A DNA stretch of 61,331 bases from a virus (IMGVR_UViG_3300045988_137383:1-61331), one strand, 5' to 3'. Counted from the first letter of the stretch, positions 22,700 through 42,767 are shown. Notes: a model not told the origin generated them from the sequence alone. Translations and numbers: made by a program.

Positions 22700-22915
22700 A
22701 TGACAATTGAAGAAAAATCTATAGATTTTGTTAGCGGTATTATCGACCATAAAATTGCTACTTTAGAAAGAGTTAGTTTTACTTGCGGCGCACAGTGGAT
22801 GCAATCCGAATTGATAGAAAAAGCCGTCGAGTGGTTCAAGCATCAAAAGGAAGAGATAGGAATATCTTGGTTTGATGACTTTGAGATTAGATTCAGAAAA
22901 GCAATGAAGGACTAA
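22700..22915 (+). CDS. hypothetical protein, 71 aa (tandem paralog B)
   Basis: MTIEEKSIDF...CGAQWMQSELIEKAVEWF is similar to the upstream gene. Confidence 0.6.
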   Translation: MTIEEKSIDFVSGIIDHKIATLERVSFTCGAQWMQSELIEKAVEWFKHQKEEIGISWFDDFEIRFRKAMKD

Positions 22916-22929
22916 TTTAGCTCAAGAAG

Positions 22930-23256: not shown

Positions 23257-23276
23257 AATAAGAAATAAAAATCATT

Positions 23277-23654: not shown

Positions 23655-23667
23655 AAAAATAGATAAT

Positions 23668-23925
23668 ATGAAACAGTTCACTGTAGAAGAATATAAGAAG
23701 AATCCAAGCCGTAAAGTTATTACTCGTGACGGCAGGAGTGTGAGAATTGTCTGTACCGATGTTATGGGAGCCATTTACCCGGTTCTTGCTGTTTATAAGA
23801 AGGATCCTACTCATGAAAGTTGGAATTCTTATACGACTGATGGAAAACTTTACACAGTGGGAGACACAGATAGCGATTTATTCTTTGCTCCGGAAAACAT
23901 GAGGGTTGGATTAATCTGGCAATAG
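23668..23925 (+). CDS. hypothetical protein, 85 aa; coding signal continues in another frame to 24047
   Basis: after ...FFAPE the next frame reads KHEGWINLAIDSSGEIFVATNHPHKDEKTAKLAVSDKSNVVATCKITWEE and ends 2 nt before the next ATG. Confidence 0.55.
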   Translation: MKQFTVEEYKKNPSRKVITRDGRSVRIVCTDVMGAIYPVLAVYKKDPTHESWNSYTTDGKLYTVGDTDSDLFFAPENMRVGLIWQ

Positions 23926-24049
23926 ACTCAAGCGGAGAAATCTTTGTAGCAACAAACCATCCTCACAAGGACGAGAAAACTGCTAAATTGGCAGTATCTG
24001 ATAAATCAAATGTTGTGGCCACCTGCAAAATAACCTGGGAGGAATAATC

Positions 24050-24505
24050 ATGAAAGTTTCTGAACTACAAATCGGCGACTGGGTGAAAATATCGCGCCAT
24101 GAAAAAGTGGTGGGAATACAGAACATTTCTGTTGCCTCGCCGGATCATTATAATATAACGACCAAATTAGCGGGAGAATCCTATCACAGAAAAGAAGATG
24201 AAGTGGAGTCTATCCCTCTGACAAGAGAGATAATGGATGCGAATCTGGACGGGCCGGACGGCTGGAAGTATGACGGAATCAGGTACACCTGGGCCAACAC
24301 TTTCTCGAAAAGCGCCCACCTTCATGCTGTGTACATTGAGTTCGTCATGGATCAAGCTATACTTTGCGTCTATGAGCGGAAGTCCACGATGTCTCATTCG
24401 CAGGAACCGCGCATTTTGGGAATGAAAATATCCTATGTCCACGAGTTGCAGCGCGCCCTGCGCTTGGCCGGGCTGAACGGGCTGGCCAATAATTTTAAAG
24501 TATAA
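24050..24505 (+). CDS. hypothetical protein, 151 aa
   Basis: ATG ORF. Confidence 0.65.
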   Translation: MKVSELQIGDWVKISRHEKVVGIQNISVASPDHYNITTKLAGESYHRKEDEVESIPLTREIMDANLDGPDGWKYDGIRYTWANTFSKSAHLHAVYIEFVMDQAILCVYERKSTMSHSQEPRILGMKISYVHELQRALRLAGLNGLANNFKV

Positions 24506-24509
24506 CATT

Positions 24510-24806
24510 ATGGAAGAAAAGCTACAGAAGGCCCTTGTGGATATCGCATTAAAAGTCTGCGAGGCAAAGAAAAGTCCGTTCTGCGACAGGTACATCATAA
24601 CAAGCCTGACAGAACTGCTGAGACATTTCAAGGATAACGGCATGTTGAAAGAAGCCCTCGTGTCCGGAATCAAGAGCGTGAGTGTGCCTGACGGTGTGCT
24701 CGGGATGTTTAATAAATTCATGAAAGAAGACGTTAAATTCCCGAAGCCAACGGATGAGGAGATAGAGCGGATGGCGGACAGGTTCATCACCGATGTGTTT
24801 GAATAG
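24510..24806 (+). CDS. hypothetical protein, 98 aa
   Basis: ATG ORF. Confidence 0.65.
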   Translation: MEEKLQKALVDIALKVCEAKKSPFCDRYIITSLTELLRHFKDNGMLKEALVSGIKSVSVPDGVLGMFNKFMKEDVKFPKPTDEEIERMADRFITDVFE

Positions 24807-24812
24807 GTGTTT

Positions 24813-24968
24813 ATGAGACGTTCAAAATTAGTGGAGGTGATTCCGTTTGACGCTCCATCAGAGTGCCCATACAACTGCGTGGGTTGCGAGCATCTGAGGG
24901 GCGTCGTCTATTACGGCAACGATGATGTCGAGGTCGAGTGCGACCTGGACGAGGAGGAAGGGCAATGA
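24813..24968 (+). CDS. small Cys-containing protein, 51 aa
   Basis: MRRSKLVEVIPFDAPSECPYNCVGCEHL...; overlaps the next start (ATGA). Confidence 0.4.
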   Translation: MRRSKLVEVIPFDAPSECPYNCVGCEHLRGVVYYGNDDVEVECDLDEEEGQ

Positions 24969-25219
24969 CGGAAGATTACACTGACGTATATCACGATGAT
25001 AACGGAACCGTAATACCAGAAGAGTCTTTCGCGCCAACAACCGAAGGTAGTAAGATACTACTAAGCGGCTCTGTTGAGGATTCTCCGAGCTTTGCAAAAT
25101 TGCTTAATGGCGAAAAACAAAAGCATGCTGGGCTATCCAAATCTTTAGAGGAATTGTTAGGTGTTCCTGTTACTGTGTGGGTAAGTTTACGTACAGTTGA
25201 CGAATTAAACAAGGATTGA
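24965..25219 (+). CDS. hypothetical protein, 84 aa
   Basis: ATG at 24965 (MTEDYTDVYHDD). Confidence 0.55.
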   Translation: MTEDYTDVYHDDNGTVIPEESFAPTTEGSKILLSGSVEDSPSFAKLLNGEKQKHAGLSKSLEELLGVPVTVWVSLRTVDELNKD

Positions 25220-25221
25220 AT

Positions 25222-25389
25222 ATGACCAACGAAGAATTTAAGAAAATCCCGTTCAAATATGACGGTGACGGGAATCCGGTAACATTCGGTGAAGCCGGGA
25301 CGTTTTTCACAAGGGAAGAGCGCAGGAAAATCAAAAGGCTCATCGAAAGAGGATATTCGGTGAGCGAGGCAATGAATAAAACCATCTGA
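25222..25389 (+). CDS. small hypothetical protein, 55 aa
   Basis: MTNEEFKKIPFKYDGDGNPV...; 2-nt gaps on both sides. Confidence 0.4.
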   Translation: MTNEEFKKIPFKYDGDGNPVTFGEAGTFFTREERRKIKRLIERGYSVSEAMNKTI

Positions 25390-25391
25390 TT

Positions 25392-25691
25392 ATGAAATTT
25401 GAAATACCAGCAACATTCACGCTCGGCGGTGTGGAGCACGTTGTCGAGATTCAGCAGGTGGTAGGGTATGAACAAGATTTTGGGCAATACGATCCTGCCA
25501 GGAAGGTTATACAAATAGCCCTGACAAGCAGGGGCCGGGTCTTGCCGCAGTCATTTCAGCAGCAGACCTTCCTTCACGAGCTTGTCCATGCCATACTGAA
25601 CACGATGCGAAAGGATGACTTATATGATGACGAGTCTTTCGTCAATACTTTCGCTTCCTTTCTCAACGAGGCTATCAACACGATGGAATAG
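25392..25691 (+). CDS. small putative zinc metallopeptidase
   Basis: HELVHAI (HExxH) motif. Confidence 0.55.
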   Translation: MKFEIPATFTLGGVEHVVEIQQVVGYEQDFGQYDPARKVIQIALTSRGRVLPQSFQQQTFLHELVHAILNTMRKDDLYDDESFVNTFASFLNEAINTME

Positions 25692-25694
25692 GCT

Positions 25695-25847
25695 ATGACG
25701 GTTAAAGAACTGATAGAAGCCCTCTATCGGATGCCGCAGGATAGCGAGGTGGTGATGTTCGATGGCCAGAACAGGTACACCCCGCGCAAGGTCTATGTGG
25801 CCGACGGGGGAGGTGATGGTATCAAGTGGAGCGTTGTGATTGATTAA
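25695..25847 (+). CDS. small hypothetical protein, 50 aa
   Basis: MTVKELIEALYRMPQDSEVVMFDG... Confidence 0.4.
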   Translation: MTVKELIEALYRMPQDSEVVMFDGQNRYTPRKVYVADGGGDGIKWSVVID

Positions 25848-25860
25848 AAAGAGCGGAGCA

Positions 25861-26211
25861 ATGAATGATAGTATAAATTCTCACAAGATATTGCAGCCCG
25901 GCGACCGATTTGGCCATTGGACGGTGCTTGGGTACATAGGCCTGCGCAAGGCGAGTTCGAATACGAGGAACCGCCTCCGTATGTACCGTTGCCGTTGCGA
26001 CTGCGGAAGGGAGCGTGATGTCAGGGGAACAGACCTCACGAGAGGCGTGTCCCCGTCCTGCGGATGTCGCAGATGGGAGGGCAGGAGAGAAATCAGAGAC
26101 GAGAGATTCAAGGCAGTCACGAACCGAGTCCCGAAACCCTACGTCCCTGAGCACCCCGAGTTGTTCACCGATGACTGGATGTTCGGAGACAGACAGGCAC
26201 CGTTTGCCTAA
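25861..26211 (+). CDS. Cys-rich zinc-ribbon-like protein (paralog of 19043-19363)
   Basis: GDRFGHWTVLG...CRCDCG...SCGC...DDWMFG. Confidence 0.7.
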   Translation: MNDSINSHKILQPGDRFGHWTVLGYIGLRKASSNTRNRLRMYRCRCDCGRERDVRGTDLTRGVSPSCGCRRWEGRREIRDERFKAVTNRVPKPYVPEHPELFTDDWMFGDRQAPFA

Positions 26212-32245: not shown

Positions 32246-32656
32246 TCACAAGGCCTTGTATTCGCTTGTCGCGTCGAAGCACGGGCACGCCTTCCTGGCG
32301 AAGTCCCTGTGGCCTCTTATCTCCGCGTTCGGATACCTCGCCTTCAGATCCTTCAGAAGCTTCGTGAGAGCCTCCCTCTGCGCGAGCGTCCTCGTGTCCT
32401 TGGCCTTTCCGGACTTGTCGAGACCTCCCACATAGCACACGCCTATGCTGTCCGCGTTGCGCCCCTGACAGTGCGCCCCGACCTCGTTCTCCGGCCTCCC
32501 GGCGTGCACCGTGCCGTCAAGGTAGACGACATAATGGTAGCCGATGGTGCGGAACCCGCGTGCCTTGTGCCACCTCGTTATCTCCTCGTTCGTCACCCAC
32601 CTGCCCTCCGGTGTGGCGGTGCAGTGCACTATGATGTAGTTAATCTTCCTTGCCAT
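32246..32656 (-). CDS. N-acetylmuramoyl-L-alanine amidase (Amidase_2 / PGRP endolysin)
   Basis: IIVHCTAT, GYHYVVYLDG, NADSIGVCYVGG, GHRDF..KACPCF. Confidence 0.9.
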   Translation of the reverse strand: MARKINYIIVHCTATPEGRWVTNEEITRWHKARGFRTIGYHYVVYLDGTVHAGRPENEVGAHCQGRNADSIGVCYVGGLDKSGKAKDTRTLAQREALTKLLKDLKARYPNAEIRGHRDFARKACPCFDATSEYKAL

Positions 32657-33179
32657 CGATCTTGACCACCTCTTTGTTTTCGGATTCCTCCGCTTTTTTT
32701 ATCGTTATCGCCCCCTCGATGTTCGCCCCGGTCTTGGCCTCGACCACGGCCTCGATGACCTTCGCCGCGTCAACCTTCACCTTCGCCTTGTGGCCGAACT
32801 TCCAGAAGTACCAGTTCTGGGCGATGGAGATCAGCTCCACGCCGATGACCACGAGCATCAACCCCGTCTCGATGATGGTGTAGCCCGTGGCCACGGCCAG
32901 CGAGGAGGCCAGCACCGCCCAGCAGAAGTACTCCACCGCCTTCCCTATCGTGCGGCGTATCGCCCTGCTTATCCTGATACGGTCGCCCTTGCGCCGGGCG
33001 GCCCTGATGCCGAACACGAGGTCGATCAGGATGACCACGGCGGCGATGACGAGGTAAGGTAGCATCCTCTCGAACGACTGCTGGAAAAACAACAACAATG
33101 TGGCCGATATGCCCGTGCCGACCACGACACTCCCCGCGGAAGCCTCGTCCGAGAGGATGTGGGCGTTGAAACCTTCCAT
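32640..33179 (-). CDS. holin
   Basis: 3-4 TM helices, VIGVELISIAQNW motif, overlaps the amidase start; ATG at 33179. Confidence 0.65.
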   Translation of the reverse strand: MEGFNAHILSDEASAGSVVVGTGISATLLLFFQQSFERMLPYLVIAAVVILIDLVFGIRAARRKGDRIRISRAIRRTIGKAVEYFCWAVLASSLAVATGYTIIETGLMLVVIGVELISIAQNWYFWKFGHKAKVKVDAAKVIEAVVEAKTGANIEGAITIKKAEESENKEVVKIDGKED

Positions 33180-33183
33180 CACG

Positions 33184-33786
33184 CTAAGTCTGTTTTTTTA
33201 TTTCAATAACGAGCGGCAGGTGGTCGGACATCATGAACCCGTCGTTGACCACTCCGCACGACACCACGGAAAGGCCGAAGGCGGCGCAGTGGTCCAGGCT
33301 CCCGGGCGACCCCGTGAAGTTGTGCCTGAACGTGACGTCGCCGATGTCCTCGACCTCCTTGCCGAGCCTCACCGCTACCTCCTCCGGGGAATGGTTGAAG
33401 TCCCCTACCATCAGGCATGGCCGCTTCTCCGCCTCCCTCCGGAGCCTCTCCCACACCTTCCCCATGCACTTCCGCCACGTGCCGTGGACGTTGATGACGC
33501 GCACGCCTTCCACCTCCGCCGCGTTGTGGTGTACCGCGAACCACAGCGGACGCGCCTTGATACCTCTGCGGACGTAGATGTGGTGGGACGCGGAAAGGCC
33601 GACGCGGCGGTAGCCTTTCGGGATCCAGAGGTTGGCCGGGAACGACAGCTCCTGAAGGCAGAGGACATCCGGGGCCTCGTCGGTTATGAACCTCCTTATC
33701 CTCTCCATCCGCCTGCGCCACCAGCGCGGCGACTTCCTGTCCGTGTCCCTTGTCCAGACGCGGCAGTTGAGCGATACTATCCTCAT
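33184..33786 (-). CDS. endonuclease/exonuclease/phosphatase (EEP) family protein
   Basis: VLCLQE, VINVHG, MVGDFN, MSDHLP. Confidence 0.8.
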   Translation of the reverse strand: MRIVSLNCRVWTRDTDRKSPRWWRRRMERIRRFITDEAPDVLCLQELSFPANLWIPKGYRRVGLSASHHIYVRRGIKARPLWFAVHHNAAEVEGVRVINVHGTWRKCMGKVWERLRREAEKRPCLMVGDFNHSPEEVAVRLGKEVEDIGDVTFRHNFTGSPGSLDHCAAFGLSVVSCGVVNDGFMMSDHLPLVIEIKKQT

Positions 33787-34049
33787 GGCCGTCCCTCCGT
33801 CGCTTCAGCCGAAACCGCGTCCTCGTCCTCCGGGACCTCCGCGTCAAGCGCGGCCACCCCGGCCTCGGCCTCGTTGATATCTCCTCGCCACGTCCTCCTC
33901 TGCGAGAGGACGGCGGCGTACTCCTCCTTCGTGGCTGCCCCCTCGGCGATCTTGGCCGCTACGTAGTCCGTCTCCTTCAGCTTCGCCTCCCTGTCCCTGA
34001 CGAGGGAGTGCAGGACATTCCTTCTGTCCTCGATTTCCTGTCTTGTCAT
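33783..34049 (-). CDS. hypothetical coiled-coil protein, 88 aa
   Basis: ATG ORF; ATGA coupling to the EEP gene; overlapped by the tail of the RT ORF in another frame. Confidence 0.6.
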   Translation of the reverse strand: MTRQEIEDRRNVLHSLVRDREAKLKETDYVAAKIAEGAATKEEYAAVLSQRRTWRGDINEAEAGVAALDAEVPEDEDAVSAEATEGRP

Positions 34050-35253
34050 TTTGCTTCCTTTTGTCTTTATTGAACTTGAAATGATATTTCCTCTTCAGTA
34101 TGTCATTGTGCTTATACCCCTCGGTCGCTTCGAAGCATCTGCTGTCATCGTTATAATGGCAGTATTTCTCCCACTTCGGACTGACCTCATCGACAAGGTC
34201 TCTGATGATGCCATAGGCGTTCTTGTGCTTGAAGTTCCCCAGATAGCTGTTGATGCTGTCCAGGAAGTGGCCGAGCATTGACGGATACACAAGCCTGTTC
34301 CATTTCCGGATGGCCATCTTGCAGTTCCTTACGGCCCTGTCGCTTGCATAGATTCTGTCGAACTTGATTTTCGCACCCAGAAAAGTGACGCCCTTGCTGT
34401 AGTGCTGCTGATACCTCTTGCGCGGGTGCATCTGATAGCCGAACTCCTCCATCAGCATCTTTTCGCTGGTGGCTACGTGGGCAAGCCCGGCCTGCAGGTT
34501 CTCCACTACCCAGACCATATCATCCACAAATCTTGTGTAATGAAGTCCGCAGGTGTCCACCTGAAACCTGTCAAACTCCGCCAGCGCGTAGTTCTTCTCC
34601 ACCTGCCAGAACTGGTTGCCGAGGCAGGCTCCGTGTTTCGGGTCGTTATTGAAGATGACGCTTTTCCCGGCGGCTATGATGTCGTCCCATCTGAATCGCG
34701 GAGACCTCAGACGCGCATGCTCCTGAGGATAGGCATAATTGACTCTTTGAAGGATATACAACAAGTCGTCCTTCTCGTCTTTGTCCTCGACACACTCTTC
34801 TATGAGGGCACGATAGCTCTCGTAGGAGCGGTCCAGATCCGTTGACGGAAAGTACGACTTGATGTCTCTCTTTATTATATAGCAATCCCTTGTGTAGTTC
34901 TTCGAGACCTTCCGGATGTCGTCACGGACCTTCAGTATCGCCCTGTCGCATCCGAAGCCTATGCGGTTGTTGAACGTGCTGTCGGTCAGTCTTTCCTCGA
35001 CGAGCGGACGCACGTGCAAATCGAAGTGATACTGGAGCGTCTTCATCTCCATCAGGCACGCTATGACCTCTCTGTCTCGGGGGTTGGGATTGATGAATCC
35101 ATATAAAAAAGGAACAAGGGAGCGGTCCTCGAAATCCCTAAGCAGCCGCATCAGGTCTCTCTCCCAATGCAGCGAAAAATGAATGCTGTCAAGGCTTCGC
35201 TTCTTGTTCGAGCGACAGCCGTAGTAGTCATCTTTTAGAGTCTCGAGTTCCAT
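33844..35253 (-). CDS. DGR reverse transcriptase
   Basis: ATG at 35253 (MELETLKDDYYG); YFPSTD, LGNQFWQVEKNYALAEFD (IGNxxSQ-like) and RFVDDMVWV (YxDD box); the TR lies 17 nt upstream; the 3' end is uncertain. Confidence 0.85.
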   Translation of the reverse strand: MELETLKDDYYGCRSNKKRSLDSIHFSLHWERDLMRLLRDFEDRSLVPFLYGFINPNPRDREVIACLMEMKTLQYHFDLHVRPLVEERLTDSTFNNRIGFGCDRAILKVRDDIRKVSKNYTRDCYIIKRDIKSYFPSTDLDRSYESYRALIEECVEDKDEKDDLLYILQRVNYAYPQEHARLRSPRFRWDDIIAAGKSVIFNNDPKHGACLGNQFWQVEKNYALAEFDRFQVDTCGLHYTRFVDDMVWVVENLQAGLAHVATSEKMLMEEFGYQMHPRKRYQQHYSKGVTFLGAKIKFDRIYASDRAVRNCKMAIRKWNRLVYPSMLGHFLDSINSYLGNFKHKNAYGIIRDLVDEVSPKWEKYCHYNDDSRCFEATEGYKHNDILKRKYHFKFNKDKRKQNDKTGNRGQKECPALPRQGQGGEAEGDGLRSGQDRRGGSHEGGVRRRPLAEEDVARRYQRGRGRGGRA

Positions 35254-35270
35254 TTCATACAACCATAATT

Positions 35271-35390
35271 CACGAGCGGAACAGCCAGGCTCGAGTTGTA
35301 CAAGTAGTTGCTGCCGGCAAAACCGTTGTTGCCATTCGCAACCCAACCGTTGTTCTCGCCATACCGGGAACAAGACCAAACGTTGCTGTT
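35271..35390 (-). repeat. DGR template repeat (TR)
   Basis: 120 nt, 112/120 identical to 36008-36127; holds the A (plus-strand T) at all 8 mismatches. Confidence 0.9.
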
Positions 35391-35465
35391 CGAGGCCCAT
35401 ACCTTGCTCTTACCTGCCGCTACGCGGGAGGAGGGCCTCCTTTATGATTTTTCGGGACTGCCGGT

Positions 35466-35915
35466 TCATTGCTTTGCAATGCCGGACGTGCCCTTGTTCC
35501 TTGATTTAATAATTGAATTCTTCCATCGGGTTACGCCTTCGTCAAGCTTACCGATATGCTCTATCAACTGCAATTTAATAGAGTCTGGGGTTGCCGTATC
35601 AAGAGGATTTTTGATACGAATAACGTTCCGCTCGCCGATTTTCCTCATAGTCAGAAGGAAGACTGCCACGTTAGCACACATCCTCTTCAAATGAATCTCC
35701 CTATCCTCCTCAAAGTCGTAGGCAAGGGTAAATTCCTTGATAACATCAAGAATCTGGTCGATAGCTCTATTGTTATATCTGATTTTATCGACTTTAGTCA
35801 TCATTGTATCCGCCTGAAGCAGCAATCCATAAATTTCGTCTGCGTCGTCTTTTATCTGAGGGTGCGGCTTTTCTCCGGGCAACTTTTTCGGTTCGTAGTA
35901 TTCTGACCTTGGCAT
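35466..35915 (-). CDS. avd: DGR accessory variability determinant (Avd-like helical bundle)
   Basis: 149-aa basic helical protein positioned between the target gene and the TR. Confidence 0.7.
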   Translation of the reverse strand: MPRSEYYEPKKLPGEKPHPQIKDDADEIYGLLLQADTMMTKVDKIRYNNRAIDQILDVIKEFTLAYDFEEDREIHLKRMCANVAVFLLTMRKIGERNVIRIKNPLDTATPDSIKLQLIEHIGKLDEGVTRWKNSIIKSRNKGTSGIAKQ

Positions 35916-35935
35916 AACTCACTTGTAATTTGCAG

Positions 35936-35962
35936 GGGCGGGAGCGGGGACGCTCCTCGCCC
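35936..35962 (-). promoter_or_regulatory. GC-rich hairpin with a 4-nt loop just 3' of the VR and target stop
   Basis: plus strand GGGCGGGAGCG-ggga-CGCTCCTCGCCC (one bulge). Confidence 0.6.
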
Positions 35963-35974
35963 GAAAGATTAAGA

Positions 35975-37366
35975 CTAAGCCACGCTTGAAGCGGTAACTT
36001 TCAAAAGCACGAGCGGAACAGCCAGGCTCGAGCCGTACAAGTAGTCGCAGCCGGCAAAACCGGTGCTGCCATTCGCAACCCAACCGTAGCTCTCGCCATA
36101 CCGGGAACAAGACCAAACGTTGCTGTTATTACCGAGGGCAGGTGCGCCTATTGCCGCGAGGGCTGCATTTACCTTGTCCGCGAATTTGTCCGATGTCGTC
36201 GGATAACGCAACCGGCCTACGATGCTGAGTATGCGCGACATCTTGCCGATTACCCATTCACCGCGCTTGAGCAGTTCGTGGCCGAAACCGCGCTCCGCCG
36301 CCAATCTCGCAGCCGGGCTGACATACTTTTCTACGCCGTCTTGTCCGACATACTTGAGACTGGCCAGATAGTAGGTGTTCCGCTTCTCCGTGCCGTATGT
36401 GCTGTCGTCAAATATCCCATACTCCGACGGAAGCACAGGAAGAAAGCTCCGCATAAACTTGAGCCAGCCTTCCTCGCCCTCTCCGTAGATTTCTCTCAAG
36501 TATGCGCAGTGGTCGCTTTGATATTTAGATGTCCCGAGATAGCCCGGGAGACAAATCGGGTATGCTCTCTTAATTGAAGTGACGTCTGCATTCGGGTTAT
36601 AAGCCGTAGAAGAATTGTCCTTCCTGAAGTATGCCAATGCTCGCGGCATATTCGTGATGGTTCCCTCGCCATTTCTTTGGCCATTCATCCTGAATATTCT
36701 TGACGTGGACTTCCACTGTGGAGCAATCGCTGATACGACAGAGAAACCGGACTTGGCCGTGTTATACGCAGCCTGCTGCCCGGTCGTGTACTTGAAATGC
36801 AGAAGAACATCGCCATTGGTGTCAGCTATCGCAACCCAGTCTTGCGCGACGAACGGCTCGTTTGCCTTGAAATAAGCATTGAGCTGCGATACCAGGGCAA
36901 CTACATTGTCCGCCTTGTACGTAATCGTGTAGTCCTGATTGGCCGCCCAGTTGTCTAACGAACTCCTGATGCTCAAGACTCCAGTATGCTCTGCCCCGTC
37001 AAGCGTATAACCAGACAGCTTGAAGTAGTATCTGGTGAACAACGGAGCACCAGTGAACTGGTGGCTCATTACAGCCACTTCGCCCCTGAAGTCCGGATGA
37101 TCCACACCGATGGCCACCACACCGATGACCTCGCCTCCCTCGGGGAGTCCTTCGGCCCTGAACGTCCCGGGCGCGGCGAAGTGGAGCGCGCGCGAGCCGT
37201 CAAGGTAGGCCACGCTCCCCGTCCTCGCCGACCTCAGCCCCACGACCACGTTCCTGCCGTCGTACCTGCATATGTTGCCCGCCTTTATGAGGGAGACCTG
37301 GCTCTCGTCCGCGCCCTTCCCCGTGTCGGCCTTGTAGGCCGCCTCTGTGTCGTAATACTTTATCAT
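35975..37366 (-). CDS. DGR target protein; putative receptor-binding tail fibre tip with a C-type-lectin-like variable C-terminus
   Basis: C-terminus ...NNSNVWSCSRYGESYGWVANGSTGFAGCDYLYGSSLAVPLV holds the VR; directly downstream of the tail fibre gene. Confidence 0.85.
   Translation of the reverse strand: MIKYYDTEAAYKADTGKGADESQVSLIKAGNICRYDGRNVVVGLRSARTGSVAYLDGSRALHFAAPGTFRAEGLPEGGEVIGVVAIGVDHPDFRGEVAVMSHQFTGAPLFTRYYFKLSGYTLDGAEHTGVLSIRSSLDNWAANQDYTITYKADNVVALVSQLNAYFKANEPFVAQDWVAIADTNGDVLLHFKYTTGQQAAYNTAKSGFSVVSAIAPQWKSTSRIFRMNGQRNGEGTITNMPRALAYFRKDNSSTAYNPNADVTSIKRAYPICLPGYLGTSKYQSDHCAYLREIYGEGEEGWLKFMRSFLPVLPSEYGIFDDSTYGTEKRNTYYLASLKYVGQDGVEKYVSPAARLAAERGFGHELLKRGEWVIGKMSRILSIVGRLRYPTTSDKFADKVNAALAAIGAPALGNNSNVWSCSRYGESYGWVANGSTGFAGCDYLYGSSLAVPLVLLKVTASSVA
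36008..36127 (-). repeat. DGR variable repeat (VR)
   Basis: see TR; the substitutions fall in the first two positions of TR AAC codons. Confidence 0.9.
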
Positions 37367-37386
37367 GATGTATCCTCCTTTCTTTT

Positions 37387-39279
37387 TTAAGCCTGTTTCC
37401 AGTCCGCAACGGAATCAACGCCGGCGGCGTAGTACAGCCCGCCAGACGCCGCGTCAAGGTTGATGTACTGCTGCCCCGCAAAGGCAGGCACACCGTCCCA
37501 CGGGAGTCCGTCCGGGAGGTTGACCGGCACGTTCGCCTCGGCCGGGACGCCGTGTCCGAGCATCACGAGGGGATAGCGGCACCTCGTCAGCCCCCTCACA
37601 TCGACCGTCCCGGCGGTCGCGTCGCCGAGGAGGCCGCGGCTCCCCTCCAGCGCGTCCAGACGGGCGGCGAGGCTCACTATGGCCTCAGCCACGACACGGT
37701 GGTCGAGACTCGCCTCCGTCTTTTGGTAATAGCCATCGAGGCTTTGGTGCTTCGTCAGGTAGCCCGTGTCGTTCTCCAGCTCCGAGACCTTTGTCGGGGC
37801 CGGTGTCTTGATGTCCCCGGCTCCGAGAACCGGCACGCCGTTGATGGTCTTGATGTTGGCTCCGGAAACCAGCCGCTGCTGAAAATCCCAGTAAGAGATA
37901 TTCGCTTCCATATAATGACCCTCATCAACCATATCCAGGTCAGATATGACGCAACGGAGTCCTCCCGAAGAATAGGTGTACATCAAAAGGACTATTTCTG
38001 AATAGTCGTCAGAGGTGTTGTCCATCATGCCGATGACCGAGGAGGTGTGTTGCTTATAAGCGATGACGTATAACGGTCGTCCGCTTCTTATAGCTGTATA
38101 CAATTCGATGACTTGATCCCTTGTGACCTCCGCGCCGTTGGCCAGTCGGAAAGCCCACATGCAGTCATAAGGCTCGACGTCCGCCTTGTCCGCCTTGACC
38201 TTCCCCAAATCCTCAATGGACTTCGTATGCCCTGCCGCGAGCGTGTTCAGCGCGGCCACTCCGGCTTTGTTCTCGGCCACCCCGGATGCGTTCCCCGCTA
38301 TGTCTGACGTGTGTCCCTCCGTAAGCCTCTGGAGTTGGGATATGGCCGCGGCCATCTGCGCCGCCCCCGTCTTGTCGGAGGCGATGTAGTCCGCTATCTC
38401 CTTCAGGGTGTCGAGGTCCTCCGGCGCGCCCGCCACCACCCTGGCTATGGCGTTGGCCACGGTCTTCTTCACGGAGCCGTCCACGTTGGAGTCGGAGTTC
38501 AGGATGTCGATGAGCGACTTGAGCGCGGCCACGGCTACCTTGCGGTCTGTCTCCTCCTTGGATATGGCTGCGTTCGCCCTGTCGATGTCGCCCTGCTCCT
38601 TGGCCTTCTGCGCGGCGAGGTCGGTGGCCACGTTTGCCACGTCCGACTGGCGGGCGATGACCTGAGGGTCCACGGACACCGTGTTGTCATCCTCGACTGA
38701 CACGCCGTAGCCCTGCCTCACCGGTCGGGAGTATGTCCCGGCGCCGTTCAGGTACTCGTTGGCGCGGCCGTCCATCTTCAGCTTGTCAACCTTACCCGCC
38801 CTCTCGTCCGTGAGGTCGTTCGCGGAGAGGCCCTTGCCTGGCTCCTTGTCCACCTTGCCGTCCAGCATCCCCTGGACGCGCTTGTCGGCCTCCGCGGCGG
38901 ACTCCTTGGTCTGGAACGTATCCGCTGCGTGGGATTTGGTCTCGAACTTCCCGTCCGCCTCCTCCTTCGAGTACATCCCCAGCTCCTCCGGGGTCTTGTC
39001 CCCCTTCAACACCACCCCGTTAACAGACGGCAAATTCTCAAGCACCTCGTAATCATATCCTAACCCGTTATCTTCAAGCAAGCCGGCAGCCAGCAATGCC
39101 CATCCCGGAGCGAGGGTATACGTACCGTCGCTGTCTTGCTTGAAATAAGGTTTGTTCCCGACCTGTTCCGCCAGGGAAGCGTATACCGACCCATCGCAGT
39201 ACACCCTATCCTGCGGATAGTATTTTCTTGTGTCGATATATTTTCCTGCCGACCACGGCAGCTTCTTTATGCAGTTCAT
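37387..39279 (-). CDS. tail fibre protein, 630 aa
   Basis: long coiled-coil centre, position between the large tail protein and the DGR target. Confidence 0.65.
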   Translation of the reverse strand: MNCIKKLPWSAGKYIDTRKYYPQDRVYCDGSVYASLAEQVGNKPYFKQDSDGTYTLAPGWALLAAGLLEDNGLGYDYEVLENLPSVNGVVLKGDKTPEELGMYSKEEADGKFETKSHAADTFQTKESAAEADKRVQGMLDGKVDKEPGKGLSANDLTDERAGKVDKLKMDGRANEYLNGAGTYSRPVRQGYGVSVEDDNTVSVDPQVIARQSDVANVATDLAAQKAKEQGDIDRANAAISKEETDRKVAVAALKSLIDILNSDSNVDGSVKKTVANAIARVVAGAPEDLDTLKEIADYIASDKTGAAQMAAAISQLQRLTEGHTSDIAGNASGVAENKAGVAALNTLAAGHTKSIEDLGKVKADKADVEPYDCMWAFRLANGAEVTRDQVIELYTAIRSGRPLYVIAYKQHTSSVIGMMDNTSDDYSEIVLLMYTYSSGGLRCVISDLDMVDEGHYMEANISYWDFQQRLVSGANIKTINGVPVLGAGDIKTPAPTKVSELENDTGYLTKHQSLDGYYQKTEASLDHRVVAEAIVSLAARLDALEGSRGLLGDATAGTVDVRGLTRCRYPLVMLGHGVPAEANVPVNLPDGLPWDGVPAFAGQQYINLDAASGGLYYAAGVDSVADWKQA

Positions 39280-39407: not shown

Positions 39408-42400
39408 TTATTCCGCCACGCCGAAACACATCTTCGACCGTTTCATCATCAGGCCGGTAGACGGATCTTTCTTCTCCTGCAGATCGACGGTCAGCGGCGC
39501 GACGTCCGAGTAGATGTAGCGCTGCACCTTTTCACCGGAGGCGTTGGTCAATTCCATGGTCGTCGGCGACAGCGGCTTGGCCGGATCGACCAGCGCGGTG
39601 AACGACGGGTTGACCCACCTCACCGCTATGCCGAACGTCTTCCTGGCGTCGTGGGCGGAGCCGAAACCCCTCGATATGTTGCTCTCAGCCGCCCACTGAG
39701 TATAGTTCCTTGCCCACAGCTCCGCCTTCGTGTGGGCGTTGTCCGTCATGAACCTTTTGACGATGAAGTCGCGGAGCTCAGAAAGACCCATGGCCACCCC
39801 TTCCGCGCCGCTGAAACCGGCGACGGTGAAGGCGGCGTGATCCGTGATTTTCTTGTCGCCGAGCGCCGCGAACCATCCTTTCCTGGAGAGCCTCACCGGC
39901 TTGGTGCTCGTGCCGTCGTAAAAATAACGCCTCCGCTTGTTCATCCGCCGGTAAACCATCAGCACCGCCTCGTACTTGTCCGACGACAGGGCCGGATGCC
40001 TGACGGACAGGACCTGTCTTTCGATATCTTCCGGCGTGTATCCCCTGACCACCCTGAGGACGGGCCGGACGCGGAGCCTGGCGTTTGTGTCGATGACCTC
40101 CGATGCCTTCGGGATGCCGAATCGAAACGCGAACTTCTTTGCCGTGTCCGGTCCCGACGCCGTGACCTCCGCGGTAGGGTCGCCCCCGGCGATGAAGAAG
40201 GATTCCGCGGTCGGAGTGGCGAACCCCGCGGCTGCCCCGGAAGACCCGTCCTTACCCGGCCGGCCCTGGGCCTTGACGCCCGTGTCAACACTGCCTATCC
40301 ACCAATTGCCATTAGATCCGATGTAAGGCGTGTCACCATCCTTTCCGGAAGACCCCTTGCTTCCGTTGCGGACCTTGAACTGGCTGGACGACCCGTCCGT
40401 TAACTTCACGGTAACCACATTCTCCCCGCTGTCCGCCGTTGAGGTGGTGGTCTGGGTGACAGACTTGATCCCCACTCCGTCATCGCCTTTTTCCCCTTTG
40501 TCTCCCTTGGCGGCTGATGAGGAAGATCCGGAGCCTGACGAATCACCGGACTCCACATCCTCCGTGTTTGACGCGGAGCTGTCGCTCGGCAGCTTGAAGG
40601 ACTTCCTCGGCCTCTCCCTCAACGTCAGCGAATATGTCGGTATGTTCGCCTCGTTCTCGTTGATGGTGAGCGTGTCTATCAGGTCTGAATAATAGCCCAA
40701 GGCCATATACCCCTGCGACAGCAGGGAGGCCTCGAAACTGAGGAATTGTCCCTCTATGAAGCTGCGGGCGTTCTCCTTTATGAACTTAGCGTCCATCGAA
40801 GGCGTCAGCACCGCGATCGGATGTGACAGCTCGTCAAGCACTTCCTTCGCCCTGCTGAGTAGCCTCTGTGACGCATACTCGATATATTCGTCAGGCATCT
40901 TGATGTCGGTGAGGACGAACCTGTCCCCGGCGGCTATCGGATATGTGGAGTTCGGGAATGTCATGTTCACCGATCTGTCCACGACACGCCTTATTTTCAG
41001 ATTCCACCCATCCGCTGAGCTGTCATAGGAGCACTTGTCGATTCTGAAGCTCCTTCCGGCGCATGCCCCTGTCTTCATCTCAAGCGTCCCTACCTTGCCG
41101 TTGGAGGACAGTCTCTGCAAGTTCGGGTCGAAGCCTATCTGCTTGAGTGTCACGTATGCGCTGGTGGGATGCCCGTCCCGCAGGCTTATTGAAATCGGCG
41201 TGCTGTTGTTCTGGTCAACAGTGACGCTGGATGACTGCAAATATTTCGACGCGCTCGCGGTCACAGTCAGGTGGAGCTCGAAGATAAAAGTGTTCCCATA
41301 GTTCGTGTCACTTACCTTGAAGAAGTCATCGTGAAGCAGTACACAATCATCCGGGATAGACAGCCGCGTCTTGCCTGTGGTGGAATCATAGTTTCTCAGC
41401 AAATCGACCTTTGCCTCGTTGCCCATGTGGGTGACAGTCAGGAACGCCTCGTCCAAAGACACCCCGTTATCCATTTCAACGTATATATCCGCCTGCCCGT
41501 CCGCCAGAATGATGTCAGACCACAGTCCCATCCTAAGGGATGCAAATCCTATGTTCTTGGTGAGTGTGACGCTCCCGTTCACACCAACGGATCCCGTCAT
41601 GCTCGCGTCACATACCGGATCGACTGTCTGCGTGATCTCTTTGACACCGCTTGTGCCGTCATCAAGGTTGGCGGTCTTCGACGATTTGACCTCGTCCGCC
41701 CTCTCGGAGTCTGTGTATATGCTTGTCGAGGGATAGTATTCGTCCGTGGTCTCCATAGACTCCCGCACGTCCCCTATCGTCACCCCCTCTATGGACGGGT
41801 ATATCTCCCCGTATTCCTCGTCATCGAAGTAGAGCACCTTCGGGCGCACGCCCAGAAGCCTCTCGTCCCTGACAGAGGCCACCCTTATGAAAGCCTTCTT
41901 CGGGTCCGGCAGCGAGTCCGTCTTGCCCCACGAGGACACAGGAATCATTAGGTTCGGGATGTCCACGCTCTCCGCGTCCTTTATGTTCAGCGAGTTGTAG
42001 TATCTCGCCCTCATATTGCGGCTCGACCCGAACGGGTACAGCCTCGTGCAGACATCATCCATCTTGGAGAACGTGACCTTCACCGAGGTCAGCCCCTGCC
42101 CCTTGCCTATGGACCCCCCGGCCACTGTGTTGCCCGCTCTCTTCGTGTTCGCCCCGCCAATGGTGAGGATGTGCTTCCCGGTGGTGGAGTTGTATGAATA
42201 TGTCCATCCCACGTTCTCCCACACCGAATATATCTGGTCAAGAGCGTCCAGCACGCTGCTCCCGCTCTCGATGGAGAACTCCCTCGCCTCCGACACGGAG
42301 GTCACGCTCGTCTTCAGGTCCGCGTCCAGAATCACGCTCCACTCTCCCGGATAGCCGCTGTCCAGGCAGGCCTGTATCCTCGCGGCCAAGCCGTCCACGT

Positions 42401-42767
42401 CCTCGAACGTGGAGATCGTCTTCCTTGACGAGAAATGTATAGTGTTGTCGGCTGTCACGATGTCCCTGAAAAGGCATCTCTCGAAGTCTTTCGTCCTCGC
42501 GTAGAAGCGCACGTTGGAATAGACGTACTTCTCGGCCACGCCCGCTTTCTCCGAGTTCTGAGCCATCTCCGGCAGGTCATAGAGCGTGTACCTGAGCCCT
42601 GTCCTCGGATAGTCCACGTAGTCCCCGACCGCCCACGCTATCGGCGTGTCGGACGCTATCTCCCTGAACTCCAGATAGGACGGTTTCAGGTACGTCCCAT
42701 GGTAGACGGGGCATCCCTTGAACCTGACAGAGCCGCCGCCGGCGGCCATTATGCTGAACCTCGCCAT
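39408..42767 (-). CDS. large tail/baseplate protein (Tal-like) with collagen-like segments, 1119 aa
   Basis: G-x-y runs GDKGEKGDDG, GSKGSSGKDGD and GRPGKDGSSG; follows the TMP and Dit positions. Confidence 0.75.
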   Translation of the reverse strand: MARFSIMAAGGGSVRFKGCPVYHGTYLKPSYLEFREIASDTPIAWAVGDYVDYPRTGLRYTLYDLPEMAQNSEKAGVAEKYVYSNVRFYARTKDFERCLFRDIVTADNTIHFSSRKTISTFEDVDGLAARIQACLDSGYPGEWSVILDADLKTSVTSVSEAREFSIESGSSVLDALDQIYSVWENVGWTYSYNSTTGKHILTIGGANTKRAGNTVAGGSIGKGQGLTSVKVTFSKMDDVCTRLYPFGSSRNMRARYYNSLNIKDAESVDIPNLMIPVSSWGKTDSLPDPKKAFIRVASVRDERLLGVRPKVLYFDDEEYGEIYPSIEGVTIGDVRESMETTDEYYPSTSIYTDSERADEVKSSKTANLDDGTSGVKEITQTVDPVCDASMTGSVGVNGSVTLTKNIGFASLRMGLWSDIILADGQADIYVEMDNGVSLDEAFLTVTHMGNEAKVDLLRNYDSTTGKTRLSIPDDCVLLHDDFFKVSDTNYGNTFIFELHLTVTASASKYLQSSSVTVDQNNSTPISISLRDGHPTSAYVTLKQIGFDPNLQRLSSNGKVGTLEMKTGACAGRSFRIDKCSYDSSADGWNLKIRRVVDRSVNMTFPNSTYPIAAGDRFVLTDIKMPDEYIEYASQRLLSRAKEVLDELSHPIAVLTPSMDAKFIKENARSFIEGQFLSFEASLLSQGYMALGYYSDLIDTLTINENEANIPTYSLTLRERPRKSFKLPSDSSASNTEDVESGDSSGSGSSSSAAKGDKGEKGDDGVGIKSVTQTTTSTADSGENVVTVKLTDGSSSQFKVRNGSKGSSGKDGDTPYIGSNGNWWIGSVDTGVKAQGRPGKDGSSGAAAGFATPTAESFFIAGGDPTAEVTASGPDTAKKFAFRFGIPKASEVIDTNARLRVRPVLRVVRGYTPEDIERQVLSVRHPALSSDKYEAVLMVYRRMNKRRRYFYDGTSTKPVRLSRKGWFAALGDKKITDHAAFTVAGFSGAEGVAMGLSELRDFIVKRFMTDNAHTKAELWARNYTQWAAESNISRGFGSAHDARKTFGIAVRWVNPSFTALVDPAKPLSPTTMELTNASGEKVQRYIYSDVAPLTVDLQEKKDPSTGLMMKRSKMCFGVAE

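What the first reader, a model, noticed from the sequence alone, without database searches (positions are those of the whole stretch)
33844..37366. Complete diversity-generating retroelement aimed at a tail-fibre tip protein
There is a 120-nt repeat pair. One copy (35271-35390) lies 17 nt upstream of the reverse transcriptase. The other (36008-36127) forms the 3' end of the 463-aa ORF directly downstream of the tail fibre gene. The copies are 112/120 identical. All 8 mismatches sit where the RT-proximal copy has T on the plus strand, which is A on the coding strand: 35296, 35297, 35309, 35312, 35326, 35329, 35351 and 35353 become C, C, C, A, G, C, A and C. On the coding strand they hit the first two positions of AAC codons. 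The TR encodes GENNGWVANGNNGFAGSNYLYNSS and the VR encodes GESYGWVANGSTGFAGCDYLYGSS. The gene order target/VR - avd - TR - RT and a GC hairpin with a 4-nt loop just 3' of the VR (35936-35962) match the BPP-1 paradigm. The mechanism is known. The element and its target in this phage lineage may not be described.
Basis: partly seen in the sequence, partly recalled or inferred. Interest (0 to 1): 0.8.

Follow-up and report, generated by a model that had tools for sequence, protein, structure and literature searches.

The report
Phage retroelement that hypermutates a tail protein
This is a complete diversity-generating retroelement in an uncultured gut Bacteroidales phage that rewrites the tip of a tail protein; it is a well-known kind of system, here in an undescribed lineage with a few unusual details.

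Summary
A 120-nt direct repeat (TR 35271-35390, VR 36008-36127, minus strand) is 112/120 identical. All 8 mismatches sit at template adenines (chance about 1.3e-6).

The cassette order is target/VR, GC hairpin, Avd-like gene, TR, reverse transcriptase.

- **RT:** the family profile matches Bordetella phage BPP-1 Brt best among solved structures (E 7e-16).
- **Avd:** the 149-aa protein has no Pfam hit, but its profile matches the bAvd of Bacteroides phage Bacuni_F1 (hhalign 96%).
- **Target:** the C-terminal domain has no Pfam hit. A deep profile matches the DUF1566/Lcl_C target of Bacuni_F1 (97%). A confident model (pLDDT 95) resembles DUF1566 phage proteins only weakly.
- **Relatives:** in 39 loci, this window included, 604 of 619 TR/VR mismatches fall at TR adenines. 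Four loci share one TR but carry different VRs.

Two further features emerged. A covarying 7-bp RNA helix brackets the TR, with a stem-loop upstream of it, and the RT starts only 17 nt after the TR. The VR hairpin is conserved with covarying stems, but its loop is TCCN, not the published GRNA.

Verdict: a new member of a known kind, of moderate-to-low interest. Current activity in this phage is inferred, not shown.

The parts
37387..39279 (-). Tail-fibre-like gene (630 aa) directly upstream of the target; genomic context, not part of the retroelement
   Evidence: Weak PHROG matches to tail fibre families, E 9e-6 to 3e-4. It lies after the tape-measure gene and a 1119-aa tail gene. Its position upstream of the target is conserved in relatives.
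35978..37366 (-). DGR target gene (463 aa; stop codon 35975-35977). The C-terminal domain (residues about 225-463) is a divergent DUF1566/Lcl_C-like domain that carries the VR.
   Evidence: No Pfam, PHROG or PDB sequence hit. More than 832 homologues, hypervariable at residues 423-448. Deep profile against the Bacuni_F1 Lcl_C target: hhalign 96.9%, E 1.8e-10. AlphaFold model pLDDT 95.3. Foldseek top hits are DUF1566 phage proteins and the Legionella Lcl C-terminal domain, none with E at or below 0.001.
36008..36127 (-). Variable repeat (VR), codons 414-453 of the target
   Evidence: 112/120 identical to the TR, with all 8 differences at TR adenines.
35936..35962 (.). GC-rich hairpin or cruciform (11 bp, one bulge, loop TCCC on the coding strand), 46 nt after the VR and between the target stop codon and the avd start
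   Evidence: DNA fold -13.4 kcal/mol, z = -4.6. A GC-rich hairpin is also the best fold within 100 nt after the VR in the relatives (25 distinct sequences), 22 of them starting 27-46 nt after it, and 19 distinct 5-prime arms among the 24 tabulated keep pairing. No T tail, so it is not terminator-like in the scan.
35469..35915 (-). Avd-like accessory gene (149 aa; stop codon 35466-35468)
   Evidence: No Pfam, PHROG, NCBIfam or PDB sequence hit. The family profile matches Bacuni_F1 bAvd at hhalign 96.2%, E 2.3e-9, over 114 columns. That protein matches Pfam bAvd PF22296 at 4.7e-36. Position between VR and TR is conserved.
35442..35448 (-). 5-prime strand (AUCAUAA) of an RNA helix that brackets the TR
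   Evidence: Pairs with 35262-35268. All 7 pairs show compensatory changes across 25 sequences and 94.7% of cells are paired.
35436..35441 (-). AGGAGG box between the bracket helix and the upstream stem-loop; its core is near-invariant and its role is unknown
   Evidence: The three core columns are identical in all 25 aligned loci, and 21 of them carry AGGAG (GGGGG, AGGAA or AGGGG in the other four).
35413..35431 (-). Stem-loop in the avd-TR spacer, upstream of the TR
   Evidence: The four pairs tested all show compensatory changes. Distant relatives have a 4-bp stem with a UCAUUUA-like heptaloop.
35271..35390 (-). Template repeat (TR), non-coding copy with 25 adenines
   Evidence: Replacing A by any base at the adenine-containing codons allows 6.3e14 protein variants and no stop codon.
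35262..35268 (-). 3-prime strand (UUAUGGU) of the TR-bracketing helix. It starts 2 nt after the TR and ends 8 nt before the RT start codon.
33847..35253 (-). DGR reverse transcriptase (469 aa; stop codon 33844-33846)
   Evidence: Pfam RVT_1 at 30.8 bits, just over the cut-off. PHROG 1423 reverse transcriptase at 1.4e-27. The family profile's best PDB match is 8ub7_A at E 7.2e-16 over the N-terminal, palm and thumb regions. 8ub7_A is BPP-1 Brt. D130, FVDD 242-245 and the LGNQFWQ motif (G212, Q217) are invariant in the family.

Best explanation
This is a diversity-generating retroelement (DGR) of a roughly 61-kb circular, siphovirus-like phage of gut Bacteroidales.

Proposed mechanism:
1. An RNA that includes the avd-TR spacer, the 120-nt TR and the first nucleotides before the RT gene is transcribed.
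2. That RNA folds so that a 7-bp helix joins the sequences just upstream and just downstream of the TR, with a stem-loop upstream of the TR.
3. The RT, together with the Avd-like protein, copies the TR into cDNA and misincorporates opposite template adenines.
4. The cDNA replaces the homologous VR at the 3-prime end of the 463-aa gene. The VR-specific flank and the GC hairpin downstream of it mark that site as the recipient.
5. This recodes up to 16 codons (about 6e14 proteins, never a stop) in the last beta-strands of a DUF1566/Lcl_C-like lectin-type domain. The protein is probably the distal receptor-binding protein of the tail, so receptor specificity can shift.

Shown here: the repeat pair and its adenine specificity; homology of the RT, Avd and target domain; conservation and covariation of the DNA hairpin and the RNA helix; hypervariability confined to the VR across the family.

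Inferred from the BPP-1 paradigm: the roles of RNA, RT and Avd in cDNA synthesis; the role of the hairpin in homing; the receptor-binding function; and that this copy is still active.
For: **Repeat pair**
- 112/120 identical, with 8 of 8 mismatches at TR adenines, p about 1.3e-6.
- With neutral scoring in 39 loci (this window and 38 relatives), 604 of 619 TR/VR mismatches are at TR adenines, which make up 27% of TR bases. Geometry is constant: in 36 of the 39 loci the TR ends 12-44 nt before the RT start, and the VR lies 675-793 nt upstream of the TR.
- When C, G or T is treated as the permissive base instead of A, the best score halves.
- L003, L004, L005 and L006 carry an identical TR but four different VRs. 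These differ almost only at TR adenines.

**Proteins**
- RT: best PDB match of the family profile is BPP-1 Brt, E 7e-16, and the catalytic residues are invariant.
- Avd-like protein: hhalign 96.2% to a Pfam-confirmed bAvd.
- Target domain: hhalign 96.9% to an Lcl_C DGR target. The model has pLDDT 95. DUF1566 proteins lead the BFVD hits and the Lcl C-terminal domain leads the PDB hits.

**Variability**
- Nine of the ten most variable columns among the 120 best homologues plus the query lie in residues 424-447.
- In a 90%-identity cluster of 1049 sequences, all ten columns with four or more residue types lie in residues 416-447.

**Nucleic-acid elements**
- TR-flanking RNA structure: 92% of cells paired against 68% in shuffles (0 of 500 reach it). 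All 11 pairs have compensatory changes. Slid controls give 27-54%.
- The hairpin after the VR is conserved with varying stems.

**Context**
- Gene order is identical to BPP-1 and Bacuni_F1.
- The VR agrees with the present, adenine-depleted TR at the positions where this TR differs from relatives. Homing therefore occurred after the TR changed.
Against: - No read-level data were available, so ongoing diversification in this phage population is not shown.
- Three independent assemblies carry the same VR. One differs by a single base in 7.2 kb (36026), which is in the VR but at a TR cytosine, not an adenine.
- This TR has 25 adenines against 33 in its closest relatives, so its diversifying capacity is reduced.
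- Structure searches for the target domain give no match with E at or below 0.001.
- Neither the Avd-like protein nor the target shows direct similarity to BPP-1 Avd or Mtd.
- The hairpin loop (TCCC on the coding strand) does not fit the 5-prime GRNA consensus reported as sequence-critical in BPP-1. Its 46-nt distance is outside the reported 4-34 bp (PMC3240598).
- There is no roughly 140-nt non-coding spacer after the TR like the one essential in BPP-1.
Confidence: 0.95

Rival explanations
1. The cassette is a structurally intact DGR that is now silent or nearly silent in this lineage. It diversified the VR in the past but no longer homes.
For: - Three assemblies have an identical VR or differ by one non-adenine base.
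- Compared with the closest relatives' TR, this TR differs at 7 positions, and 6 of those are adenines in the relatives. It has 25 A against 33.
- The RT carries a C-terminal tail that overlaps a conserved small ORF.
Against: - All RT catalytic and family-invariant residues are intact, and all parts are conserved in place.
- The VR follows the present TR at the eroded positions and differs only at remaining adenines. At least one homing event therefore followed the TR change.
- A cluster member (P0428) differs from this protein only at S426N, a TR-adenine codon.
Confidence: 0.15
2. The conserved GC hairpin after the VR is mainly a transcriptional or RNA-stability element between the target gene and avd. 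It is not a DGR target-recognition cruciform.
For: - It lies in the intergenic gap after the stop codon.
- Some relatives have T-rich tails after it, for example L012 and L015.
- Its loop does not fit the GRNA consensus, and it lies further from the VR than published cases (PMC3240598).
Against: - In this window there is no T tail, and the terminator scan does not pick it up.
- Position and GC-rich stem are kept across loci whose RTs are only 37-40% identical, and a TCC-containing loop is kept in 16 of the 25 distinct hairpins. This matches the behaviour described for DGR hairpins, where stem sequence is free and the loop is constrained (PMC3240598).
- The two roles do not exclude each other.
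Confidence: 0.25
3. The repeat is an ordinary duplication of the gene's 3-prime end beside an unrelated reverse transcriptase (retron, group II intron or defence RT). The adenine pattern is coincidence or selection.
For: The single-sequence RT match to Pfam RVT_1 is only just above threshold, with weak sub-threshold NCBIfam matches to group II, retron and Drt models.
Against: - p about 1e-6 in this window, and 604 of 619 mismatches at adenines across 39 loci.
- The RT profile matches BPP-1 Brt far better than group II or retron RTs: 7e-16 against 5e-4 or worse.
- No Rfam family, including group II intron RNAs, reaches threshold in the window.
Confidence: 0.01

Closest known systems
Bordetella phage BPP-1 DGR (mtd / avd / TR / brt), the experimental prototype
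   Same: - Same gene order, with the VR at the 3-prime end of a tail gene followed by a GC hairpin, then avd, TR and RT.
- The RT family profile matches Brt at E 7e-16.
- Adenine-specific TR-to-VR differences.
- An upstream:downstream RNA duplex flanks the TR, analogous to the avd:Sp 'cPRT Stop' duplex (bioRxiv 10.1101/2023.10.23.563531).
   Different: - The RT is 469 aa against 328 aa. It has an insertion of about 50 aa between the N-terminal and palm regions, and WQ in place of SQ in the LGxxxSQ-type motif.
- Avd and the target show no direct sequence similarity to BPP-1 Avd or Mtd.
- The TR is 17 nt from the RT start, against 144 nt in BPP-1. There is thus no non-coding spacer, and the stem-loop lies upstream rather than downstream of the TR.
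- The duplex strand starts 2 nt after the TR.
- The hairpin loop is TCCC rather than GAAA/GRNA and lies 46 nt from the VR (PMC3240598).
- The VR ends 30 nt before the stop codon, against 5 nt in BPP-1.
DGR of Bacteroides uniformis phages Bacuni_F1, F2 and F4 (Hedzet et al. 2021, PMC8143477), the closest cultured relatives
   Same: - Best tblastn hits for the RT among GenBank phages.
- Same order: target, bAvd, TR abutting the RT, with the lysis amidase nearby.
- Avd and the VR-bearing domain are detectably homologous by profile comparison, at 96% and 97%.
- Bacteroidales hosts.
   Different: - The RT is only 28-30% identical.
- The Bacuni_F1 target is a 253-aa protein recognised by Pfam Lcl_C, and its Avd is recognised by Pfam bAvd. 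Neither the target nor the Avd here is recognised by any Pfam model.
- The phage backbones are unrelated at the DNA level.
DUF1566 / Lcl C-terminal domain (Pfam PF07603; Legionella Lcl, PDB 8q4e), a C-type-lectin-like scaffold common in Bacteroidota and phage DGR targets
   Same: - The family consensus has the W-x-L-P...E and WS...AW...G pattern.
- Profile match to an Lcl_C DGR target.
- One distant family member has a sub-threshold Lcl_C hit, E 0.007.
- Top Foldseek hits are Lcl C-terminal and DUF1566 proteins.
   Different: - No member reaches the Pfam threshold. This protein has WVIG in place of WxLP.
- Structural matches are partial: about 84-130 of 239 residues, TM 0.2-0.35, E above 0.001.
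- The domain has an extra helical N-terminal half.
- The family is small, with 165 representatives at 50% identity among 1.84 billion proteins.

Membership tests
Diversity-generating retroelement (DGR) | A template repeat and a variable repeat whose differences are confined to template adenines | tested here: met
   8 of 8 mismatches at TR adenines, p about 1.3e-6. 604 of 619 in 39 loci, this window included, under neutral scoring.
Diversity-generating retroelement (DGR) | A reverse transcriptase of the DGR clade with intact catalytic motifs, next to the TR | tested here: met
   The profile's best PDB match is BPP-1 Brt at E 7.2e-16, against 5e-4 or worse for retron and group II RTs. D130, FVDD and LGNQFWQ are invariant in the family. 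The motif has W where DGR RTs usually have S; that comparison rests on the Brt alignment only.
Diversity-generating retroelement (DGR) | The VR lies at the 3-prime end of a protein-coding target gene, and adenine changes cannot create stop codons | tested here: met
   The VR covers codons 414-453 of 463. The adenine-bearing codons are AAC, AAT, AGC, TAC, TAT and GAG, and none can become a stop.
Diversity-generating retroelement (DGR) | An accessory variability determinant (Avd) between VR and TR. Common but not universal. | tested here: met
   hhalign 96.2%, E 2.3e-9, to Bacuni_F1 bAvd, which itself matches Pfam PF22296 at 4.7e-36. No direct Pfam or PDB hit, and no match to BPP-1 Avd. The four-helix-bundle pentamer structure was not modelled.
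Diversity-generating retroelement (DGR) | The VR is displayed on a C-type-lectin-like (or Ig-like) scaffold | tested here: inconclusive
   Profile match of 96.9% to an Lcl_C-type DGR target. The high-confidence model has DUF1566 proteins and Lcl C-terminal domain as its top structural neighbours, but with E from 0.004 to 0.18 and TM of 0.35 or less. No match to Mtd.
Diversity-generating retroelement (DGR) | A GC-rich hairpin/cruciform downstream of the VR with a 4-nt GRNA loop, 4-34 bp from the VR (Guo et al. 2011, PMC3240598) | tested here: inconclusive
   A conserved GC hairpin with covarying stems is present. The loop is TCCC/TCCN on the coding strand and the distance is 46 nt here (27-46 nt in 22 of the 25 distinct hairpins), so the loop-consensus and distance criteria are not met.
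Diversity-generating retroelement (DGR) | Structured RNA flanking the TR, with pairing between sequences upstream and downstream of it (BPP-1 avd:Sp duplex; bioRxiv 10.1101/2023.10.23.563531) | tested here: met
   A 7-bp bracket helix and an upstream stem-loop. All 11 pairs have compensatory changes, and 92% of cells are paired against 68% in shuffles and 27-54% in slid controls. The arrangement differs from BPP-1: there is no 140-nt spacer and the stem-loop is upstream.
Diversity-generating retroelement (DGR) | Ongoing mutagenic homing, seen as VR polymorphism at TR-adenine sites within a population | not testable with these tools
   No reads were available. Proxies: four loci with an identical TR and different VRs; within-cluster variability confined to the VR; but three assemblies of this phage have essentially the same VR.

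The most novel reading that the evidence does not exclude
This Bacteroidales-phage DGR family may use a compact, rearranged DGR RNA. The stem-loop and the near-invariant AGGAG box lie upstream of the TR. The upstream:downstream duplex closes directly on the TR 3-prime end, and there is no non-coding spacer before the RT gene. Together with a TCCN (not GRNA) target hairpin loop, this could mean that cDNA priming and target recognition differ mechanistically from BPP-1. For example, the priming site could lie inside the RT coding region or in the 8-nt gap, or priming could be target-primed rather than by the self-priming seen in BPP-1.
Probability: 0.2. Interest if true: 0.55.

Novelty: new member of a known kind. 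Interest (0 to 1): 0.3.

Why it matters
DGRs are the main known route to targeted protein hypervariation in phages, and they are common in gut Bacteroidales phages. Finding one more is not surprising.

The value here is practical:
- It gives a cleanly delimited, complete cassette in a complete circular genome of an uncultured lineage.
- It shows that two of its proteins, the Avd-like protein and the target, escape current Pfam models. Domain-based DGR annotation would therefore call this element incomplete or its target 'unknown'.
- It defines a small target family (about 165 clusters at 50% identity) that links to DUF1566 only through deep profiles.
- It provides covariation-supported nucleic-acid elements (a TR-bracketing RNA helix, an upstream stem-loop and a VR hairpin with a TCCN loop). 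These could be used to test how general the BPP-1 RNA mechanism is.

Tried and rejected
**Searches that found nothing**
- Megablast of the 7-kb region, and tblastn of the target, against GenBank phages: no match.
- A TR/VR pattern with N at the adenines, scanned in IMG/VR and in JGI metagenome contigs: no exact match. This exact TR backbone is not in those collections.
- Rfam scan of the whole window: nothing at gathering thresholds.
- P0428 could not be located on a contig.

**Structure and profile attempts that failed or were superseded**
- AlphaFold on the full-length target with a shallow alignment (all sequences at least 69% identical) gave pLDDT 45 and was unusable for the VR domain. It was replaced by the C-terminal domain with a deep alignment.
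- Pfam and PDB sequence searches of the target and the Avd-like family found nothing, even at E up to 10.
- hhalign against single BPP-1 Avd and Mtd sequences gave no signal.
- RNAalifold on a MAFFT alignment of the VR hairpins failed because the alignment is not structure-aware. I used per-sequence folding and stem tabulation instead.

**Hypotheses rejected**
- The MFE fold of the 391-nt TR region suggested a long helix between the TR 5-prime half and the RT coding region. The alignment fold did not support it, so I dropped it.
- I considered the EEP-family nuclease just downstream of the RT as a possible DGR nicking enzyme. It is present only in the closest sub-lineage and absent from most relatives with the same DGR.
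- My first TR/VR scan used scoring that favoured adenine mismatches. I redid it with neutral scoring and base-swap controls.

Full report
**1. Observation**

The window carries a 120-nt direct repeat, 35271-35390 and 36008-36127, that is 112/120 identical. All genes in the region read on the minus strand.

On that strand, every one of the eight mismatches has A in the RT-proximal copy (the TR). The distal copy (the VR) has G, T, G, C, T, G, G and G at those positions. The TR has 25 adenines in 120 nt, so eight of eight by chance has probability 1.3e-6.

A pattern with N at each TR adenine matches only these two places in the window, against zero expected. There is therefore one VR.

The VR covers codons 414-453 of a 463-aa ORF (35978-37366). 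Seven codons differ, six AAC and one AGC.

Replacing A by any base at the adenine-bearing TR codons allows 6.3e14 proteins and never a stop codon.

**2. The proteins**

*Reverse transcriptase (33847-35253, 469 aa).*
- It passes Pfam RVT_1 only narrowly, at 30.8 bits against a cut-off of 29.6. It matches PHROG 1423 'reverse transcriptase' at 1.4e-27.
- A profile of 33 family members finds PDB 8ub7_A as by far the best solved structure, at E 7.2e-16. The match covers the N-terminal extension and fingers (3-151) and the palm and thumb (204-337). Retron and group II RTs follow at 5e-4 or worse.
- 8ub7_A is 100% identical to the Brt of Bordetella phage BPP-1.
- The catalytic D130 and the FVDD box are invariant in the family. 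So are G212 and Q217 of LGNQFWQ, which aligns with IGSLTSQ of Brt.

*Avd-like protein (35469-35915, 149 aa).*
- It has no hit in Pfam, PHROGs, NCBIfam or the PDB.
- A profile of 27 homologues matches the annotated bAvd of Bacteroides phage Bacuni_F1 at hhalign probability 96.2%, E 2.3e-9, over 114 columns. That protein is a strong member of Pfam bAvd (PF22296, 4.7e-36).
- Gene callers use a 112-aa version. The extra 37 N-terminal residues are conserved, so the longer ORF is more likely.

*Target protein.*
- It has more than 832 homologues and no Pfam or PDB match.
- A first AlphaFold run on the whole protein with a shallow alignment failed, at pLDDT 45.
- An exhaustive profile search with the C-terminal 239 residues found only 165 representatives at 50% identity among 1.84 billion proteins, always with the domain at the C-terminus.
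- With those sequences the family consensus shows G-W-x-L-P...E...N..L..IGG...WS..R....AW...G..G.
- The profile then matches the Lcl_C (DUF1566) domain of the Bacuni_F1 DGR target at 96.9%, E 1.8e-10.
- The C-terminal domain model has pLDDT 95.3 and pTM 0.90.
- Foldseek gives the Legionella Lcl C-terminal domain as the top PDB hit (E 0.18, probability 0.85). Among viral models it gives several DUF1566 phage proteins and a tail fibre protein (E 0.004-0.06, probability 0.94-1.0). No hit has E at or below 0.001.
- I therefore rate the lectin-type fold as likely but not proven.

**3. Context**

The window is a complete genome with a 75-bp terminal direct repeat. It comes from ENA assembly ERZ28620637.

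The order on the minus strand is: major head protein, tape measure (1597 aa), a 179-aa and a 1119-aa tail protein, a 630-aa protein with weak tail-fibre matches, the target, avd, TR, RT, an EEP-family nuclease, holin, amidase. The target is thus the last gene of the tail module. This supports, but does not prove, a receptor-binding role.

No GenBank phage matches at the DNA level. The capsid protein is at most 32% identical to any, with LoVEphage nearest. The best RT matches are Bacteroides phages F2, Bacuni_F1 and F4 at 28-30%.

Bacuni_F1 and BPP-1 have the same cassette order. Related RTs occur in MAGs of Bacteroidales, Cryptobacteroides and Prevotellaceae.

**4. Relatives as a substitute for read pile-ups**

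I fetched 92 related loci and analysed 38 of them, plus this window, with neutral match/mismatch scoring.
- All 39 have a best-scoring repeat pair at the same site, 115-129 nt long in 35 of them. In 36 the TR ends 12-44 nt before the RT start, and the VR lies 675-793 nt upstream of the TR.
- 604 of 619 mismatches are at TR adenines, which make up 27% of TR bases. The spectrum is A-to-G 344, A-to-T 209 and A-to-C 51.
- Making C, G or T the 'free' base instead of A halves the best score.
- L003, L004, L005 and L006 share an identical TR and have four different VRs.

At the protein level, nine of the ten most variable columns among the 120 best homologues plus the query are residues 424-447. One 90%-identity cluster holds 1049 distinct sequences. 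In the members read, all ten columns with four or more residue types lie in 416-447.

For this phage itself the evidence is thinner.
- Two other assemblies carry the same cassette. One is identical over the compared region from 38753 down to about 31796, which spans the whole cassette.
- The other differs at one base in 7.2 kb, at 36026. That base is inside the VR but at a TR cytosine.
- A cluster member (P0428) differs only by S426N, at a TR-adenine codon.

**5. Nucleic-acid elements**

*DNA hairpin after the VR.*
- The hairpin at 35936-35962 is significant: DNA fold -13.4 kcal/mol, z = -4.6.
- In the relatives the best hairpin within 100 nt after the VR is likewise GC-rich, with 8-14 bp; there are 25 distinct such hairpins, and 22 of them start 27-46 nt after the VR. 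Among the 24 tabulated there are 19 different 5-prime arms, and pairing is kept in all.
- Most loops contain TCC (TCCC, TCCG, TCCT, CTCCGT).
- Guo et al. (PMC3240598) found that in BPP-1 the stem sequence is free and the loop is critical. They reported a GRNA consensus on the sense strand and distances of 4-34 bp. The element here behaves the same way but has a different loop and a longer distance.
- It has no T tail and is not terminator-like in the scan.

*RNA structure around the TR.*
- An alignment fold of the avd-to-RT region in 25 loci predicted a helix that brackets the TR.
- In this window AUCAUAA (35448-35442) pairs with UUAUGGU (35268-35262), which starts 2 nt after the TR.
- A stem-loop lies at 35431-35413.
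- On the named structure, 92.2% of cells pair against 67.7% in column shuffles (0 of 500 reach it). All 11 pairs have compensatory changes. Sliding the partner by 1-3 columns gives 27-54%.
- An AGGAGG box follows the 5-prime strand. Its three core columns are identical in all 25 loci, and 21 of them carry AGGAG.
- This corresponds to the pairing between sequences upstream and downstream of the TR (the avd:Sp 'cPRT Stop' duplex) seen in the BPP-1 ribonucleoprotein and predicted in 207 of 278 other DGRs (bioRxiv 10.1101/2023.10.23.563531).
- The layout differs from BPP-1. BPP-1 has a 144-nt gap between TR and brt. Here the RT starts 17 nt after the TR, and the stem-loop is upstream of the TR.

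**6. Mechanism and rivals**

The best explanation is a canonical DGR. An RNA containing the TR and its flanks is copied by the RT with the Avd-like protein, with errors at adenines. The cDNA replaces the VR, whose specific flank and hairpin mark it as the recipient.

The VR matches the present TR at the positions where this TR differs from its relatives. At least one homing event therefore followed that change.

Whether the element is active now is open. I give a silent-relic reading about 0.15. A non-DGR origin of the repeat is excluded for practical purposes.

**7. Novelty**

DGRs in gut Bacteroidales phages are well documented (PMC6199706, PMC8008677, PMC8143477). This is a new member of a known kind.

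Its distinguishing points are:
- an Avd and a target that current Pfam models miss;
- a small target family linked to DUF1566 only by deep profiles;
- a compact TR-flanking RNA;
- a non-GRNA hairpin loop.

Noticed in passing
window 35271-35390, compared with L003:5864-5987 and L020:5864-5987: This TR has 25 adenines and the closest relatives' TRs have 33. Of the 7 differences from the L020 TR, 6 are at positions where the relative has A (five A-to-G and one A-to-T). The template itself looks adenine-mutagenised, perhaps through occasional homing or gene conversion into the TR.
   Followed up: partly
window 33783-34049 (minus strand): An 88-aa ORF overlaps the last roughly 68 codons of the RT in another frame. 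Its stop overlaps the start of the next gene (ATGA). It is conserved at 41-55% identity even in loci whose RT is only 26-30% identical, and there it follows a shorter RT of about 400 aa. It is probably a real gene that callers miss. The RT tail here may be an unconserved read-through.
   Followed up: partly
window 33184-33786 (minus strand): An endonuclease/exonuclease/phosphatase-family gene (Pfam PF03372, 6.8e-11) sits directly after the RT, which recalls the APE-plus-RT pairing of LINE elements. It is present only in the closest sub-lineage (L007-L011, L023, L097) and absent from other relatives with the same DGR. It is therefore not a conserved DGR part.
   Followed up: yes
window 32246-39279, compared with L003-L011: The locus is mosaic. 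The RT and target are closest to the L003-L006/L020 group (RT 92-94%, target 84-88%). The tail-fibre gene, nuclease, holin and amidase are closest to the L007-L011 group (76-98%), and that group's target is only 66-73% identical. The DGR cassette appears to have been exchanged between phage backbones.
   Followed up: partly
window 36026: The only difference in 7.2 kb between this contig and ERZ1749067 NODE_229 is a G/C change inside the VR (AGC to AGG, S447R). It lies at a TR cytosine, not an adenine. It could be a non-adenine RT error, an ordinary mutation under selection, or an assembly consensus drawn from a mixed population.
   Followed up: partly
window 1-75 and 61257-61331: A 75-bp terminal direct repeat means the window is a circularly closed, complete genome of about 61.26 kb.
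   Followed up: yes
window about 31796 and below, compared with L097: A contig with an identical DGR and lysis region (ERZ1749280 NODE_94, 67.5 kb) diverges from the window just past the amidase. There it carries a DUF6808 gene and a tyrosine integrase. Close relatives therefore differ in a lysogeny-related module.
   Followed up: no
window 20000-26000: GC content drops to 38-47% against about 58% for the rest of the genome. The RT/avd region is also lower, at 49.5%. This may be horizontally acquired DNA.
   Followed up: no
window 39408-42767 (minus strand): The 1119-aa tail protein contains a short collagen-like Gly-X-Y stretch (KGDKGEKGDDGVG and later GSKGSSGKDG, GRPGKDGSSG), seen in the translation.
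   Followed up: no
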